Made by a program: the position numbers and the translations under genes | Source: a virus | Strand: one strand, 5' to 3' | DNA: 64,000 nucleotides | Virus record (IMG/VR): IMGVR_UViG_3300046694_000196 | Coordinates: 1-64,000 of that record | Shown here: one piece after another, positions 12,243 through 16,956 of the stretch | How positions within the stretch are numbered: the stretch's first letter is position 1 | Layout of the letters: each line of letters begins with the position of its first letter | Notes under the pieces: model-generated | Told to the model about the DNA's origin: nothing | Seen by the model: the letters and a program-made list of their open reading frames with translations, nothing else | Database searches by the model: none

Positions 12243-13079
12243 ATGAAATACACCGTCTATCAACTCACATCGCCGTCTAGCAAATCATACGTAGGATACA
12301 CCAAACTTAGTGCGTCCACACGATTTGACCAACACGTCAGGTCTTGGAAGAAATGGGTCAAAGAGGGCTCTCACCGGCAATGCGCGTCAAAACTTTTCTG
12401 CGCATTCAACAAGTATCCACCGCATGAATGGACAATAGAAATTCTACATGCAGTCGACAGTGATTCGCTCGTTCAAGAACTCGAGCGTGAAGAGATAGAG
12501 AGAAGGAACACAATCTCCGAGGGATACAACATGATTCCCGGCGGGCGTGGGGGCCTCGGAAAAGTCATGACCACGGAACAAAAGCAGAAAATTTCAAACA
12601 GCAGAAAGCAGTATTTCTCATCTGACGACGGTGACAAGTGGAAGAAAGAACTCTCTCAAAAATTCACAGAAGACAATCCTTGTAAGAAAGGAAACGTCCC
12701 GTGGAACAAGGGAAAGGCTGCGCCTAAGATTAGTGAGAGTCTAAAGAAATACCATGATGAAAAAATCTGGAGCGAAGAGGAGAGAGAACGCTCTCGTAAG
12801 AATGCGCATTCTCTATGGGAACGAGGAGTCTTTGATAACCGTCCTCTACCGACCGAAGAGACTAAACGAAAGATATCTGAAGCCGGAAAGGGTCGTAAGC
12901 AGACAGATTATCAGAAGCAAAGAGCGCGTGAGGCTAACAGTGGGAAAGTCTTATCAGACGAGACACGAAAAAAACTCTCAGAAAGAACTCTACAGATTTA
13001 TGTATGCCCGAAATGTGGTGTTACCGGAAAGAGCGGAGTTATGAAACGTTGGCACTTTGATAACTGTCGCTCAGTATAA
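12243..13079 (+). mobile_element. Free-standing GIY-YIG (Seg-like) homing endonuclease
   Basis: VYQ..YVG bipartite motif, GYN motif, NUMOD3-like EETKRKISE/DETRKKLSE repeats, C-terminal CPKC..RWHFDNC; clearly more AT-rich than flanks; own early promoter upstream. Confidence 0.88.
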
Positions 13080-13115
13080 ATACGTCAAAGAGTCCTTAAG
13101 GACCGAGAAAGAACT

Positions 13116-13140
13116 AGGGAGCCAAACGGCTCCCTTTTCT
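13116..13140 (+). terminator. Intrinsic terminator
   Basis: agggagcc-aaac-ggctccct followed by T run. Confidence 0.8.
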
Positions 13141-13462
13141 GTACGTCCAAACTGGTGATCTGACGTCACTCTAGCAGTAAGCATGAGGAATCCATCAGCT
13201 CTTTGAGTTTCCCAATTCTTGCCTCTCTATGCCATTATTATCATTGTGATATTCGTGGCAAAAGTAGAAGAACTCCCCAGTTTCACAGACTGTCGGCCGT
13301 TTACGCTCGGTGAACCAGCAGGAACTCTATCAGGTCTGCTGCACATTGCATGGCCGAGGTCGTCAGCTCGAACTGGTCCGACATGCTCGGGTCTTCGAGG
13401 TAGTCGAGCAGCTCTCGTAGAGTCCAGCCGTAGGACTCTGTCAATTCTTCAATCTCTTTCAT

Positions 13463-13927
13463 TCAACCCTGCTCTTTCTGCATCATCTTAGACTCACCGG
13501 GAGTGATGAACGTGAACGGCGGGGCTTCACCTGAGTCCATGCCCTCAGAACCGCCGGCTCCCTGCGACGTTTTTTTCTTGCCGAAGCGGATAATCTTCAA
13601 CCCGTCTGAAGCCTTCTTGGACTCCTCCTTGGTGGCTTCAGTGGCGGGGAACCTCACGAGTCGCGGCCGGTCCTCGCCCGAGAACAACAGAACGTAGTAG
13701 ACGTAGTCCTGGCCCTCGTTGCTGTAGAGGACCAGCGCCTCCTTGTCGTCAGGGACCAGGAACGAGTCCAGGGCATAGCCGACGTAGTTTACCGACATCG
13801 CCGTGACGTAGAAGCCCGCCGCGAAGACTACCAGCACGACCGGTATCAACAGTCGCCGGAACCAGGAGACTGCCAGCACCAGTGCGACAGCCGAGAGCAG
13901 TGTGTACGCGCCGAAGATTACCGTCAC
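13463..13927 (-). CDS. Membrane protein, third gene of MotA/MotB-like module
   Basis: Two N-terminal hydrophobic helices then soluble domain; 4-nt overlap with upstream gene. Confidence 0.65.
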   Translation of the reverse strand: MTVIFGAYTLLSAVALVLAVSWFRRLLIPVVLVVFAAGFYVTAMSVNYVGYALDSFLVPDDKEALVLYSNEGQDYVYYVLLFSGEDRPRLVRFPATEATKEESKKASDGLKIIRFGKKKTSQGAGGSEGMDSGEAPPFTFITPGESKMMQKEQG

Positions 13928-14475
13928 TTGATCATTCCCTTTGCTAGACTTACCTGAGTCGAGGTGTCGACGCTCGAGACCTTGCCCGTCGAGTCGACGT
14001 CGAACGACACGAGAGTGAACTCGTCGCCCGACCTAGACAGCTCCACTTCTTGTTCGGCCACTACCCTGTAGGGCATCAGTGAAGTGAGACTCAGCCTCAC
14101 TCTCGGGGGAGCGGTGTCGTGCCGGCCGTAGAGCATCACGTTAGCGACGTAGTGCCCCGGAGTGAGCGACCTCACGCTGATGACTTCGCGGCGGAGGACG
14201 TCTACTTTCATGGTGCCCATGTCGTCTACGTCGAGGGTTACGGACCCCTGGACCTTCTTCTGGTAGTTAGTCACCGACCCGTCGGGCTGCTGCAGCCAGA
14301 TATCCACGTCAGACGCGGAGTCTTTAGACCAGGTGCCCTCGAAGATGAACCTCGCGGCGTCTTGCACGTTCCCCTTGGCCTGGGGACTGTCGTCCATCAT
14401 GATGAAGAAGCAGAAGAACACCGCCAGGAGACACGTCAGCAGGTCGATGTACGCTATCGCGATGTGTCTAGGCAT
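13924..14475 (-). CDS. MotB/ExbD/TolR-like single-pass membrane protein with beta-rich C-terminal domain
   Basis: N-terminal TM AYIDLLTCLLAVFFCFF with intramembrane Asp; WSKDSASDVDIWLQQPDG resembles YfaP/DUF2135-type domain. Confidence 0.65.
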   Translation of the reverse strand: MPRHIAIAYIDLLTCLLAVFFCFFIMMDDSPQAKGNVQDAARFIFEGTWSKDSASDVDIWLQQPDGSVTNYQKKVQGSVTLDVDDMGTMKVDVLRREVISVRSLTPGHYVANVMLYGRHDTAPPRVRLSLTSLMPYRVVAEQEVELSRSGDEFTLVSFDVDSTGKVSSVDTSTQVSLAKGMIK

Positions 14476-14875
14476 GCTCGTACACCCCGTAGCAGAGGTA
14501 CGCCTGCTGGCCCAGGAGCCAGGACAGGCCGACGCCGGCGGCGCCCGTGAGGAACACCGGGGCCAGCTCGACGAGCACGTTGGCCTTGAAGGTCGCGAGG
14601 TCTCCGGCGTGGGAGAACATCAGGATGAACCCGATGATCGTGCCGAGCAGCCCCAGGGCAGTGAGCTCGAGGCGCTGGAAGTTGACCGCCGCGAAGTTGG
14701 CAGCGCTGCCCTTGACGCCGAGGTAGACCGTACACGCCAGGTAGATCGCGATGATGAACAGAGAGACGTGGGTCTTCTCGTACTTCATGAGCAGGTTGAA
14801 CGCGTCATGGAAGTAGACCGCGTATGCCACGACGAAGGCCGTGACGGAGTTGAAAGTTACGTACCGCAGGTTCAT
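14468..14875 (-). CDS. MotA/TolQ/ExbB-like proton-channel subunit
   Basis: Four hydrophobic segments incl. LGLLGTIIGFILMF signature and VFLTGAAGVGL helix. Confidence 0.75.
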   Translation of the reverse strand: MNLRYVTFNSVTAFVVAYAVYFHDAFNLLMKYEKTHVSLFIIAIYLACTVYLGVKGSAANFAAVNFQRLELTALGLLGTIIGFILMFSHAGDLATFKANVLVELAPVFLTGAAGVGLSWLLGQQAYLCYGVYEHA

Positions 14876-15225
14876 TCCGAGTTCCTCTCTTTGGAAAGCC
14901 TCAACTGGTCTTCTAGGACCGTGACTCTCTCGTCATAGATCCGGGCGTAAGTCTCGAGCTGCGAAGACCTGTGCTGCAGCCTCTTGACCTCATCGATGCT
15001 CTCCTTGTCTCCGACGACGTTGAAGCCGTTCCAGGACATACCGCACACCTCGTGCGAGTCGGCGAGTCCCATGAGCTTCGCGCGGAGCTCTGCCACTTCT
15101 TGCGACAGAGAAGTGATCTCGTCTGCCGCGGCGATCGCGGTGTCGACGTTCACCTCTATTGTAGAGTGACCCCTGGACGCGGCCTTAGAGGCCCAGCTGA
15201 ACAGGTCGTTGTGTACGCTCCCCAC
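14872..15225 (-). CDS. Hypothetical coiled-coil protein
   Basis: 117-aa ORF, GTG start with GAAAGGA RBS, overlaps motA-like start. Confidence 0.6.
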   Translation of the reverse strand: MGSVHNDLFSWASKAASRGHSTIEVNVDTAIAAADEITSLSQEVAELRAKLMGLADSHEVCGMSWNGFNVVGDKESIDEVKRLQHRSSQLETYARIYDERVTVLEDQLRLSKERNSE

Positions 15226-15414
15226 TTAGTATCCTTTCTCAGTCGTCTCCGATGACGAACGCGAGGGCCGTCATCCACACAGTAAAGAACAGCAGGAACA
15301 TCCTGGCGTCGGGCGAAGAAAACGCGTCGAGCGGGTCCGCCGTGATGAACGTCCACGCGAGGTACGGTGAGACGAAACCGATCGCGGCGCGCACTGATCT
15401 GTGTACCTTCATAG

Positions 15415-16393
15415 TCAACCTCCGGACTTGCGAGAGCGAAACTGATGTGCGATGGCCTGTCCGAGCGCCCCTAGGGTCAGTTCGACGTACTCAGCGCACT
15501 CCTCGTATGCGTAGTCCCTGCCCGCGTCACGTCCATCCTCGTAGAGCAGCTTCGCCGGCCAGTCGGGGTGCGGCTTCTGCCACTGCAGCAGTGGATAGCG
15601 TTCGATGACAACGGAATAAGTGCCGTCACCGTTGTCTCGTCCGTACTCGACGGCGTAGGGCCTCATCTCTTCATCCTGACTCTGATGCGGTAGAGGACCC
15701 TGCACTTTGGGTACCTGCGATCGGTCGCGCGCTTCTCTGCCGCCTCTCGCGAGGGGTGCAAGATAGAAGTCAGGTAGTCGTACCGGTCGAGCATCCGCTT
15801 AGACTCGGTGACGTTCACCCAGCCGTCGTCGTATTCGTCACTGCTGTAGAATATCGGTTCGATGATCATCCGAACATCACCAGATCGTATTGCTGGTACC
15901 GGTACTTGACCAGGTCCAGCGTCGGAGCGGTGCCGTCGAGCCTGCCGTCTTCTCGGCGCACGACCCAGTTGCCGGCGAGCTGGACGACGTCCCCGAACCG
16001 GTCGGTGTCGATGCCCCACTCCCGCCGGACGTAGAACTTGATCTTTTCCATGAAGTGACCCTTTCCGTTGATCGAGGCCAGCCTATACCGTTTCTCGACT
16101 CTTGTCAACTAGCGGACCTTGACCCACACCCGTGAGTCCGGCTCGAACTGTTCGACTCCGCGGGCGACCTGGTACCAGTCAGGGGCCGTGGGTGAGACGT
16201 TCTCCGCGTTGATGCCCCTCATCTTCTCGAGCGCTTCCTCGAGCGTAGAGGCGTACCAGTACTCCGTGGAGCTTCCCCAGCCCCTCTCGCTCTCGTAGAC
16301 TTCTACTCGGAAGTCCCTCTTCGTCTCGGTCTCGATGACCGACACCGGAGTGACCTCTTCGATCGGCGCGGTGAACTTGAAGCCGGTACCCAT
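15415..16393 (-). other. Run of four short hypothetical early ORFs (15415-15666, 15663-15869, 15866-16051, 16109-16393)
   Basis: Coupled small ORFs; TTGACA-type promoter near 16080-16110 on minus strand. Confidence 0.55.
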
Positions 16394-16405
16394 TTCTCGT
16401 GCTCC

Positions 16406-16413
16406 TATAAATA
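16406..16413 (+). promoter_or_regulatory. T4-type late promoter (gp3)
   Basis: Exact TATAAATA. Confidence 0.8.
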
Positions 16414-16455
16414 CCATGAGACCACTCTATACCATTTCTCGATGAAGGTAAACCC

Positions 16456-16956
16456 GTGCCGGTGATCCAAGACACAAATTATCTGAGCATCAACAACTTC
16501 AGGTTCGACGTGCTCAGGCTCCCCGAGACCAGCTTTTTCGTCCAGAGCGTCTCGATACCGGGTTTCTCCTTCAACAGCGCGGGGGTCAATACCCCGTTCA
16601 CCACGATCAAGTTCTCGGGAGACCACCCCCAGTTCGACCCCCTCCGCGTGACGTTCTTCGTTGACGCGAAGATGGAGTCGTACAAGACTCTCTTCAAGTG
16701 GTGGCAGGGACTGGCGTTCCCCAACGACCACACGCAGTACGCCGCGCTGGTCAAGAGACCGGGTGACCGGAACGGGACGTACTCCGACCTCACCATAGGG
16801 CTGCTCGACAAGGGAGACGGCCTGGTCGCGAACATCCAGTTCGTCAAGGCGATGCCAGTCTCAGTGGGGAGCATCGACTTCACCTACCAGAACGAAGACA
16901 CCAACTACGCCACGGTGACGGCCCTCTTCGAGTACGACTCCTTCGACTTCGTCTGA
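16456..16956 (+). CDS. gp3: Tail completion / tube terminator protein
   Basis: NYLSINNFRF..P...FFVQSVSIPG, FDPLRVTFFVD motifs; precedes uvsY. Confidence 0.88.
   Translation: MPVIQDTNYLSINNFRFDVLRLPETSFFVQSVSIPGFSFNSAGVNTPFTTIKFSGDHPQFDPLRVTFFVDAKMESYKTLFKWWQGLAFPNDHTQYAALVKRPGDRNGTYSDLTIGLLDKGDGLVANIQFVKAMPVSVGSIDFTYQNEDTNYATVTALFEYDSFDFV

What the first reader, a model, noticed from the sequence alone, without database searches (positions are those of the whole stretch)
13463..14875. Phage-encoded MotA/ExbB + MotB/ExbD-like ion-channel/motor module with a third membrane partner
Three overlapping minus-strand genes form the module. The first is a compact 4-TM protein with the MotA/TolQ/ExbB signature LGLLGTIIGF. 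The second is a single-pass protein with the conserved intramembrane Asp (YIDLLT) of MotB/ExbD/TolR but a YfaP-like beta domain instead of an OmpA peptidoglycan-binding domain. The third is a two-TM protein that could be the energised partner. This family forms ion-driven rotary units (flagellar stator, Ton, Tol, Zorya ZorAB). Presence in a lytic phage early cassette is unexpected. Hypotheses: poisoning host Ton/Tol/Mot complexes for superinfection exclusion or motility shutdown, tuning membrane potential, or acting as a decoy for Zorya.
Basis: partly seen in the sequence, partly recalled or inferred. Interest (0 to 1): 0.85.

Follow-up and report, generated by a model that had tools for sequence, protein, structure and literature searches.

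The report
Phage copy of unnamed MotA-type motor trio
A T4-like phage from a rhizosphere metagenome carries three overlapping membrane genes that look like a stripped-down relative of the ion-driven motors behind flagella and the Ton/Tol systems. I found the same trio in other unrelated phages and in about 15% of sampled Alphaproteobacteria, and I found no paper describing it or its function.

Summary
Three translationally coupled minus-strand genes (A 14468-14875, B 13924-14475, C 13463-13927) are real.

- **A:** a 135-aa, 4-TM remote member of the MotA/ExbB/TolQ/ZorA superfamily. It keeps only the channel-forming helix pair and has no cytoplasmic domain.
- **B:** a MotB/ExbD-type single-pass protein with a near-invariant membrane Asp. 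Its periplasmic domain has a TerD-type beta-sandwich fold. It is neither an OmpA domain nor a detectable YfaP/DUF2135 domain.
- **C:** a new protein with a 2-TM hairpin, a small beta domain, a disordered linker and a conserved C-terminal peptide.

A-B-C order is kept in every complete locus I examined. These cover at least five types of cultured rhizobiophage, uncultured phages, and chromosomal loci among housekeeping genes (B found in 44 of 301 sampled genomes).

The window's B lies in a phage-only clade. The cluster runs antisense to late genes and has no T4 late promoter, so it is probably expressed before late genes.

My best reading is an autonomous ion-driven motor with periplasmic output. 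Its biological role is unknown. The poison and decoy ideas are not supported.

This scan has found the same trio before on other DNA (at least 11 earlier notes). I found no description in the literature searched.

The parts
14468..14875 (-). Gene A: 135-aa, 4-TM miniature MotA/ExbB/TolQ-type subunit with no cytoplasmic domain
   Evidence: ORF. PF01618 E=0.0036, 17.5 bits, below the gathering score of 22.9. 6 of 7 relatives hit PF01618, best 3.3e-6. The family profile against PDB gives MotA/ZorA/TolQ/PomA as its top 20 hits, best 8.3e-5. hhalign against E. coli TolQ gives 80% probability, E=1.4e-5, over TolQ 133-208.
14627..14656 (-). A residues 74-83, LGLLGTIIGF: channel-helix signature with Thr79
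   Evidence: G75, G78 and G82 are invariant in 15 relatives. The motif aligns to TolQ IGLFGTVWG (Thr145 by my numbering from memory) and to MotA GMIGTLIGL.
13924..14475 (-). Gene B: 183-aa single-pass MotB/ExbD-type subunit with a periplasmic TerD-fold domain
   Evidence: ORF. 1404 representative relatives. AF2 model pLDDT 94.3, TM helix 3-27.
14443..14445 (-). B Asp11 codon: putative ion-binding Asp in the TM helix
   Evidence: Invariant in 7 relatives and at least 90% conserved in 75. Aligns with the Asp of MotB, ZorB and TolR. PF13677 MotB_plug is hit by 6 of 75 relatives, best 2.9e-4.
13966..14349 (-). B residues 43-170: nine-strand beta sandwich, TerD-like, with invariant acidic residues (D56, D58, D84, D85 in subsets, E97)
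   Evidence: Foldseek PDB hits: 2qng 1.5e-4, then TerD 3ibz, 2qz7 and 2kxt. VIA-align gives TerD Z 10.2 and 10.0 over 135-136 residues, with the next hit at 5.9. BFVD hits include TerD-like phage proteins.
13463..13927 (-). Gene C: 154-aa third partner with a 2-TM hairpin, small beta domain, disordered linker and C-terminal peptide
   Evidence: ORF. Homologues lie directly downstream of B in every complete locus. AF2 pLDDT 75. No known family or fold.
13784..13924 (-). C residues 2-48: TM hairpin with a basic cytoplasmic turn (RR)
   Evidence: The turn is basic in relatives, which implies that both ends face the periplasm.
13499..13522 (-). C residues 136-143, PPFTFITP: conserved C-terminal peptide (hydrophobic-x-F-hydrophobic-x-hydrophobic-P) after the disordered linker
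   Evidence: Conserved in phage and bacterial C proteins; P143 is nearly invariant. Predicted as a strand at 138-141.

Best explanation
The three genes encode a self-contained, ion-driven membrane motor of the MotAB/ExbBD/TolQR/ZorAB (5:2) kind, in a minimal form that I did not find described.

Shown here:
- A carries the channel-forming helix pair of the superfamily and nothing else on the cytoplasmic side.
- B carries the MotB-type TM helix with the conserved Asp, and a periplasmic TerD-fold beta sandwich rich in invariant acidic residues.
- C is always present.
- The three genes overlap and move together through phages and bacterial chromosomes.

Inferred:
- A forms a ring around a B dimer.
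- Protons (or Na+) passing B Asp11 and A Thr79 drive rotation of A around B.
- The TerD-like head of B, probably binding Ca2+, holds B in the periplasm in place of an OmpA domain.
- C is anchored by its TM hairpin to the outside of the A ring. Like TonB or TolA, it transmits the movement through its flexible linker and conserved C-terminal peptide to a periplasmic or outer-envelope target.
- A has no cytoplasmic domain, so the output must be periplasmic.

In this T4-like phage the operon lies antisense to the late genes and has no late promoter. The motor is therefore probably built before late gene expression and acts on the host envelope using the host's membrane potential.

The biological role is open. 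My ranking:
- Envelope maintenance or energising an outer-envelope process during infection: about 35%.
- Blocking superinfecting phages: about 30%.
- Control of lysis timing: about 10%.
- Something else: about 25%.
For: - **A in the superfamily:**
- **B:** TM Asp conserved and aligned to MotB/ZorB/TolR. Basic residues before the TM support an N-in topology.
- **TerD fold:**
- **Gene linkage:** A lies directly upstream of B in 21 of 23 loci by HMM. One exception is a cut contig; in the other the A-like gene fell below the threshold but is visible. C lies directly downstream in every complete locus. The trio is intact in 10 of 10 chromosomal loci.
- **Precomputed Pfam:** PF01618 on the upstream neighbour of five distant B relatives.
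- **Coupling:** overlapping start and stop codons.
- **Phage lineage:** the window's B sits in a phage-only clade (96/89) with a second T4-like phage, Pootjesviridae, 68-kb rhizobiophages and a recombinase-bearing phage.
- **Timing:** TATAAATA occurs 10 times in the window (0.08 expected), 9 of them on the + strand. None occurs on the minus strand in 13000-16700, even with one mismatch.
- **Phage neighbours:** DNA-metabolism genes in the annotated contexts.
Against: - The window's own A scores below Pfam's gathering threshold (17.5 against 22.9 bits).
- B's likeness to MotB/ExbD/TolR covers only 17-40 residues and is not significant on its own (E 0.078-0.5; hhalign probability 3.7%).
- No structure of A and no A:B assembly was predicted, so pentamer:dimer stoichiometry and rotation are untested.
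- C's attachment to A and its target are pure inference.
- Expression timing rests only on strand and on the absence of a promoter motif. No RNA data exist.
- Nothing here shows a phenotype.
Confidence: 0.6

Rival explanations
1. Poison or decoy. The phage subunits mix into, or mimic, host Ton, Tol, Mot or Zorya complexes. This would shut down motility, block uptake routes used by competing phages, or blind Zorya.
For: A's profile also matches ZorA, TolQ and MotA. Early-type membrane proteins of T4-like phages often act in exclusion (my own knowledge).
Against: - A, B and C are always inherited as a complete set with the Asp and Thr intact, which a poison subunit would not need.
- The same trio is chromosomal among housekeeping genes in bacteria.
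- Identity to TolQ/MotA is confined to about 70 residues at about 19%, too low for co-assembly to be likely.
- A lacks the ZorA tail and the cytoplasmic domains that contact FliG or form the ExbB cage.
Confidence: 0.07
2. Gated ion leak rather than a working motor. A5B2 acts as a regulated proton channel and C or the TerD-like head acts as the gate. Opening it lowers membrane potential to block DNA entry of superinfecting phages, or to reprogramme the host.
For: - There is no cytoplasmic or obvious periplasmic load.
- The distribution is patchy (15% of genomes) and neighbourhoods vary, as for defence or exclusion genes.
- Temperate phages and prophages carry it.
Against: - Eight of 10 chromosomal neighbours have no PADLOC match. 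The two matches are generic (a NYN nuclease and an ABC-type ATPase).
- Neighbours are housekeeping genes.
- C keeps a conserved linker and terminal peptide, which looks like a transmission element.
Confidence: 0.15
3. Lysis-related device. The trio controls or assists envelope breakdown at the end of infection (timing, lysis inhibition or outer-membrane disruption), as earlier notes of this scan proposed for copies next to lysis genes.
For: Earlier scan notes report adjacency to lysis genes and lysozyme fusions elsewhere. These are leads only and I did not reproduce them here.
Against: - In this window there is no late promoter and no lysis gene next to the trio.
- No lysis or lysozyme domain was found in the neighbours tested in 16-3, RHph_N3_19, RHph_Y68 and L015, nor in the long B, C and A forms tested.
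- A PMF-driven motor would stop once a holin fires (inference).
Confidence: 0.1

Closest known systems
TolQ-TolR-TolA and ExbB-ExbD-TonB (Tol-Pal and Ton inner-membrane motors)
   Same: Three inner-membrane proteins encoded in the order A-B-C. A shares the channel helix pair (GxxGT and T-containing helices). B is single-pass with a membrane Asp and a periplasmic domain. The third protein is membrane-anchored with a flexible periplasmic linker. The output is periplasmic.
   Different: A has four TM helices and no cytoplasmic domain. B's periplasmic domain has a TerD fold, not the ExbD/TolR fold. C has a two-helix hairpin without the SHLS motif, its globular part is next to the membrane, and it ends in a short peptide instead of a TonB/TolA C-terminal domain. 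No Pal, TolB or TonB-dependent receptor is linked.
MotA-MotB / PomA-PomB flagellar stator units
   Same: Best sequence matches of the A profile (8gqy MotA, 8.3e-5). Four-TM topology of A. B's TM motif (Y-I-D-L-L-T against Y-A-D-L-x-T) and occasional MotB_plug Pfam hits.
   Different: No torque-generating cytoplasmic domain in A, no OmpA-like peptidoglycan-binding domain in B, and an obligatory third gene.
Zorya ZorA-ZorB (anti-phage 5:2 motor)
   Same: A non-flagellar MotAB relative linked to phage biology. ZorA and ZorB appear among the profile hits.
   Different: No long ZorA cytoplasmic tail, no ZorC/ZorD effectors, no ZorB peptidoglycan-binding domain. It is encoded by the phage itself.
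TerD family Ca2+-binding beta sandwiches (TerD/TerE/TerZ; PDB 2kxt, 2qz7, 3ibz)
   Same: The fold of B residues 43-170 (Z about 10) and clusters of conserved Asp/Glu in loops.
   Different: No TerD Pfam hit. The domain is periplasmic and tethered to a MotB-like TM helix, whereas TerD proteins are soluble and cytoplasmic (my own knowledge). No ter operon genes are nearby.

Membership tests
MotA/ExbB/TolQ superfamily (PF01618), protein A | Significant profile similarity to the channel-forming helix pair | tested here: met
   Family profile against PDB: MotA 8.3e-5, ZorA 2.6e-4, TolQ 1.4e-3; the top 20 hits are all A subunits. hhalign against TolQ: 80% probability, E=1.4e-5. 6 of 7 relatives hit PF01618, best 3.3e-6.
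MotA/ExbB/TolQ superfamily (PF01618), protein A | The window's own protein reaches Pfam's gathering score | tested here: not met
   17.5 bits against a cut-off of 22.9, E=0.0036. Membership rests on family-level profiles.
MotA/ExbB/TolQ superfamily (PF01618), protein A | Conserved Thr in the GxxGT helix facing the partner's Asp | tested here: met
   T79 in LGLLGTIIG. G75, G78 and G82 are invariant and Thr is present in 13 of 15 relatives. It aligns to the TolQ GLFGT motif.
MotA/ExbB/TolQ superfamily (PF01618), protein A | Large cytoplasmic domain between or after the TM helices | tested here: not met
   The protein is 135 aa and the loop between TM2 and TM3 is about 12 residues. This is a defining difference of the subfamily.
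5:2 ion-driven motors | Pentamer of A around a dimer of B | not testable with these tools
MotB/ExbD/TolR/ZorB, protein B | Single N-terminal TM helix, N-in, with a conserved Asp | tested here: met
   Helix 3-27. D11 is at least 90% conserved in 75 relatives. Basic residues precede the helix. The Asp aligns with that of MotB, ZorB and TolR.
MotB/ExbD/TolR/ZorB, protein B | Significant sequence match to MotB_plug or ExbD models | tested here: inconclusive
   Window B has no hit. 6 of 75 relatives hit PF13677 (best 2.9e-4) and 1 hits PF02472. PDB profile E 0.078-0.5. hhalign against TolR gives 3.7% probability.
MotB/ExbD/TolR/ZorB, protein B | OmpA-like or ExbD-type periplasmic domain | tested here: not met
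   The periplasmic domain is a TerD-like beta sandwich.
TerD family (PF02342), B residues 43-170 | TerD fold | tested here: met
   VIA-align gives Z 10.2 (2qz7) and 10.0 (2kxt), rmsd 3.6-3.9 over 135-136 residues, with the next hit at 5.9. Foldseek probability 1.00.
TerD family (PF02342), B residues 43-170 | Match to the TerD sequence model and its Ca2+-binding motifs | tested here: inconclusive
   TerD is not among the Pfam families hit by the window protein or by 75 relatives. The invariant residues D56, D58, D84 and E97 suggest metal sites, but their equivalence to the TerD sites was not tested.
YfaP / DUF2135 (PF09906), protein B | Match to the DUF2135 model | tested here: not met
   No hit at E<=1 for the window protein and none at 0.01 in 75 relatives. 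Only a source label on one homologue and a weak Atlas lead at 0.83.
TonB / TolA, protein C | Single N-terminal TM with the SHLS motif and a C-terminal globular binding domain | tested here: not met
   Two TM helices, no His in them, a globular part next to the membrane, and a short terminal peptide. The flexible linker is shared (pLDDT below 50 at residues 120-133).
Zorya | ZorA cytoplasmic tail and ZorC/ZorD (or ZorE) effectors | tested here: not met
   A ends about 13 residues after TM4. PADLOC gives only weak ZorA hits (E 0.003-0.03) and none for B or C. The neighbours are small unrelated genes.

The most novel reading that the evidence does not exclude
This is a virus-encoded, autonomous ion-driven rotary motor of a new minimal class. 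It has no cytoplasmic domain, a Ca2+-binding TerD-like axle head, and a partner that carries a tethered peptide. Phages would switch it on before late gene expression to do mechanical work on the host envelope, for example to shut the door on competing phages or to hold the envelope together until lysis. Chromosomal copies would mark an unrecognised third envelope energiser beside Ton and Tol in Alphaproteobacteria.
Probability: 0.4. Interest if true: 0.85.

Novelty: new variant of a known kind. Interest (0 to 1): 0.72.

Why it matters
The known 5:2 motors (Mot, Ton, Tol, Gld, Zorya) each opened a field. This trio would be a further branch, and the smallest. It has a new periplasmic head and a new third subunit. 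It is carried both by bacteria and by several unrelated phage lineages.

A phage that brings its own proton-driven machine implies an unrecognised, energy-dependent step at the host envelope during infection.

Some carriers are cultured and tractable: temperate phage 16-3 in Sinorhizobium meliloti, and the RHph rhizobiophages. The question can therefore be tested directly with ordinary deletions and point mutants.

Tried and rejected
- **Complex prediction of B(36-183) x2 with C(49-154):** no verdict (scores 0.48, 0.00, 0.00). It is not evidence either way.
- **5:2 model:** could not be submitted because of the 6-chain cap.
- **Structure of A:** not predicted. Both fold jobs went to B and C.
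- **C fold searches:** nothing significant. Foldseek best E was 0.11. In VIA-align the best Z was 6.7, on the helical hairpin only. OB-like barrels scored about Z 5 on the soluble part.
- **Megablast of the region and tblastn of A against cultured phages:** no match.
- **Single-protein scan of viral contigs with B:** nothing.
- **Relatives search:** not available for a virus record.
- **Lysozyme fusions and lysis neighbours** (leads from earlier notes): not found in the long B, C and A forms or in the neighbours I scanned.
- **Trypsin-like peptidase:** linked to the trio in 16-3-type prophages but absent from this phage record.
- **Defence-island context:** 8 of 10 chromosomal neighbours have no PADLOC hit.
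- **RNA evidence:** no RNA holder listed. The only run holding the sequence is the rhizosphere metagenome that is probably its source.
- **Literature:** five successful searches and one paper read found no description of the trio.
- **The 59-aa membrane ORF as a fourth subunit:** shared only with phage 16-3 and absent near the trio in the closest relative. I rejected it as a core part.

Full report
**Observation.**
- The window belongs to a 126-kb IMG/VR virus record, estimated 73% complete.
- It is a T4-superfamily phage. Its gp23-type capsid protein is 66% identical to that of Stenotrophomonas phage DLP6 and 64% to the Sinorhizobium phiM12 group.
- A UvsW-like helicase ORF lies nearby (read by eye).
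- The only public run that holds the sequence is a rhizosphere metagenome.
- The upstream gene and A share ATGA. A and B overlap by 8 nt. B and C share GTGA. The genes are therefore translationally coupled.

**Protein A.**
- On its own, A scores 17.5 bits against PF01618, below the gathering score of 22.9. It gives weak ZorA hits in PADLOC.
- The family evidence is much stronger. Six of seven relatives hit PF01618, best 3.3e-6.
- A 15-sequence profile searched against all PDB sequences returns only 5:2-motor A subunits in its top 20: MotA 8.3e-5, ZorA 2.6e-4, TolQ 1.4e-3, then PomA.
- hhalign against E. coli TolQ gives 80% probability and E=1.4e-5 over TolQ 133-208. It aligns LGLLGTIIG with IGLFGTVWG, and the T-rich last helix with TolQ's IATAIGL.
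- A has four hydrophobic segments and essentially no cytoplasmic loop or tail.
- It is thus a remote, minimal member of the superfamily that keeps only the channel core.

**Protein B.**
- A profile of B and its three nearest relatives finds 1404 representative clusters at E<=1e-3 and 671 at E<=1e-10 among 1.84 billion representatives. Nearly all of the 150 hits listed are 180-230 aa and match over their full length.
- The N-terminal helix carries the motif (F/Y)-(I/V/L)-D-(L/F)-L. The Asp (D11 here) is at least 90% conserved in 75 sequences.
- Short basic N-termini place the N-terminus inside the cell.
- Six of 75 relatives hit Pfam MotB_plug and one hits ExbD.
- The family profile aligns its Asp with that of MotB, ZorB and TolR. 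Because the match is one helix long, it is not significant by itself.
- The AF2 model is confident (pLDDT 94.3): helix 3-27, a linker, then a nine-strand sandwich at 43-170.
- Foldseek finds TerD-type structures (2qng, 3ibz, 2qz7, 2kxt) at probability 1.00.
- An exhaustive VIA-align search gives TerD at Z 10.2 and 10.0 over 135-136 residues, well above the next hit at 5.9. BFVD returns TerD-like phage proteins.
- No DUF2135/YfaP or TerD HMM is hit. 'YfaP-like' is therefore only a source label on one homologue.
- The invariant acidic residues (D56, D58, D84, E97, and D82/D85 in subsets) suggest metal sites like TerD's Ca2+ sites. This is an inference.

**Protein C.**
- C has no family or fold match.
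- The model (pLDDT 75) shows a TM hairpin (2-22, 27-48) with a basic turn, a small beta domain with one helix (63-115), a disordered Gly/charged stretch (120-133) and a terminal strand (138-141).
- Across 23 phage and bacterial C proteins, three features are conserved: an LGYP-like motif after TM2, an (E)PR motif, and a C-terminal peptide of the type hydrophobic-x-F-hydrophobic-x-hydrophobic-P (here PPFTFITP).
- The basic turn implies that both ends face the periplasm.

**Linkage and distribution.**
- Among 50,697 cultured phage records, two different B queries find only 27-29 records. All are Rhizobium or Sinorhizobium phages.
- These cover at least five genome types: 152-158-kb Pootjesviridae, 171-kb RHph_I1_18, the 68-kb N3_19 group, 59-69-kb phages, and the temperate 16-3 group.
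- A, B and C are each homologous to the neighbours in those phages and lie in the same order.
- Uncultured phage contigs, including a 607-kb one, and metagenomic contigs show the same arrangement. Their neighbours are phage-like: T4 neck protein, ThyX, thymidylate synthase/DHFR, MazG, a serine recombinase.
- Following a lead from earlier notes of this scan, I searched bacterial genomes. B occurs in 44 of 301 sampled genomes of the class of a Rhizobiaceae genome.
- In 10 of 10 chromosomal loci fetched, the A-B-C trio is intact.
- Neighbours there include SpoT/RelA, FtsX, CtaA, CysNC and DsbD, which indicates these loci are not prophages. Most neighbours have no PADLOC match.
- I built a maximum-likelihood tree of B with 49 rows. 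Duplicates, one frameshifted copy and one partial copy were left out. The root is at the midpoint, for drawing only.
- The tree puts the window with its nearest relative (L015) in a phage-only clade of seven, supported at 96/89. The clade also holds RHph_N3_19, RHph_Y68/P10VF, a second T4-like phage (L008) and a recombinase-bearing phage (L012).
- This clade sits next to a chromosomal clade of 17. The 16-3 group lies in the other major clade, together with other chromosomal copies.
- Phages have therefore acquired the trio more than once, and one lineage of it circulates among unrelated phages.

**Expression.**
- The T4 late-promoter motif TATAAATA occurs 10 times in the window against 0.08 expected. 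Nine are on the + strand. Several lie about 25-35 nt upstream of a + strand start codon, for example upstream of the capsid gene.
- The minus-strand cluster 13301-16417 has none, even with one mismatch. It lies between + strand late units.
- In T4-type phages this layout is typical of early or middle genes (established knowledge). So the trio is probably made before late genes.
- This is an inference. No RNA data were available.

**Mechanism.**
- My best reading is an autonomous ion-driven motor. A forms a ring around a B dimer. Ion passage via B D11 and A T79 drives rotation of A relative to B.
- B's TerD-like head holds B in the periplasm. C is anchored to A by its hairpin and transmits movement through its linker and terminal peptide.
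- Homology, topology, linkage and conservation are shown. Stoichiometry, rotation, C's attachment and the target are inferred.
- Poison or decoy models are unlikely. The set is always complete and functional-looking, and it exists as a chromosomal system in bacteria.

**Novelty.**
- Searches of the paper library, and the most recent phylogenetic survey of MotAB relatives (PMC12505986), yielded no description of this trio, of phage-encoded copies or of a TerD-headed B subunit.
- Earlier notes of this same scan describe the same trio on other DNA at least 11 times.
- My independent results agree with their core points: the trio itself, the TerD-like head, and its distribution in phages and Alphaproteobacteria.
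- I did not reproduce the lysis-gene or lysozyme links for this window.

Noticed in passing
window 15239-15418 (-): A 59-aa small membrane ORF two genes upstream of A is 41% identical to phage 16-3 p041, which sits between B and C in 16-3. It is not found near the trio in the closest relative or in other loci.
   Followed up: partly
window 795, 4418, 9856, 10835, 13075, 16406, 35536, 40804, 62636 (+) and 29015 (-): Ten exact T4-type late promoter motifs (TATAAATA) against 0.08 expected. Several lie about 25-35 nt before a start codon. They give a ready map of late transcription units in this phage.
   Followed up: partly
window 12243-13079 (+): A 278-aa ORF between the capsid gene and the trio cluster lies in a low-GC stretch (GC 0.50 against about 0.59). 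By eye it looks like a GIY-YIG-type homing endonuclease with repeated basic modules. I did not check it with an HMM.
   Followed up: no
window 13116-13135: An 8-bp GC-rich hairpin scored as a terminator on both strands. It lies in the gap between the + strand ORF and the end of the minus-strand cluster.
   Followed up: no
L022 2268-3167 (phage 16-3 p036); L024-L029 and L033; L001 7285-7977: A trypsin-like (PF13365) peptidase lies just upstream of the trio in 16-3 and in 6 of 7 related prophage-like loci, and 2.3 kb downstream in RHph_N3_19. It is absent from this phage record.
   Followed up: partly
L038/L039 (G001 C1 4362119-4362653, Rhizobium ruizarguesonis Vaf-46): The B gene of this 16-3-like chromosomal copy is split into two pieces, probably by a frameshift, so the trio is decaying there.
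   Followed up: no
L052 9539-10333, L053 9192-9983, L055 9416-10147: In three chromosomal loci, a conserved gene of about 245-265 aa with no Pfam hit follows C directly. It may be a fourth component of the bacterial version.
   Followed up: partly
L007 1720-2955 (-): An IS605/TnpB (Cas12f-like) gene lies 0.4 kb upstream of a trio on a 4.9-kb MAG contig.
   Followed up: no
PDB 11pb_C / 36za (virion structural protein, 864 aa): The B family's DVD-x-W...P-x-G motif also matches a stretch of a solved phage virion structural protein (E 0.22-0.25). The TerD-like sandwich recurs inside large uncharacterised phage proteins in BFVD.
   Followed up: no
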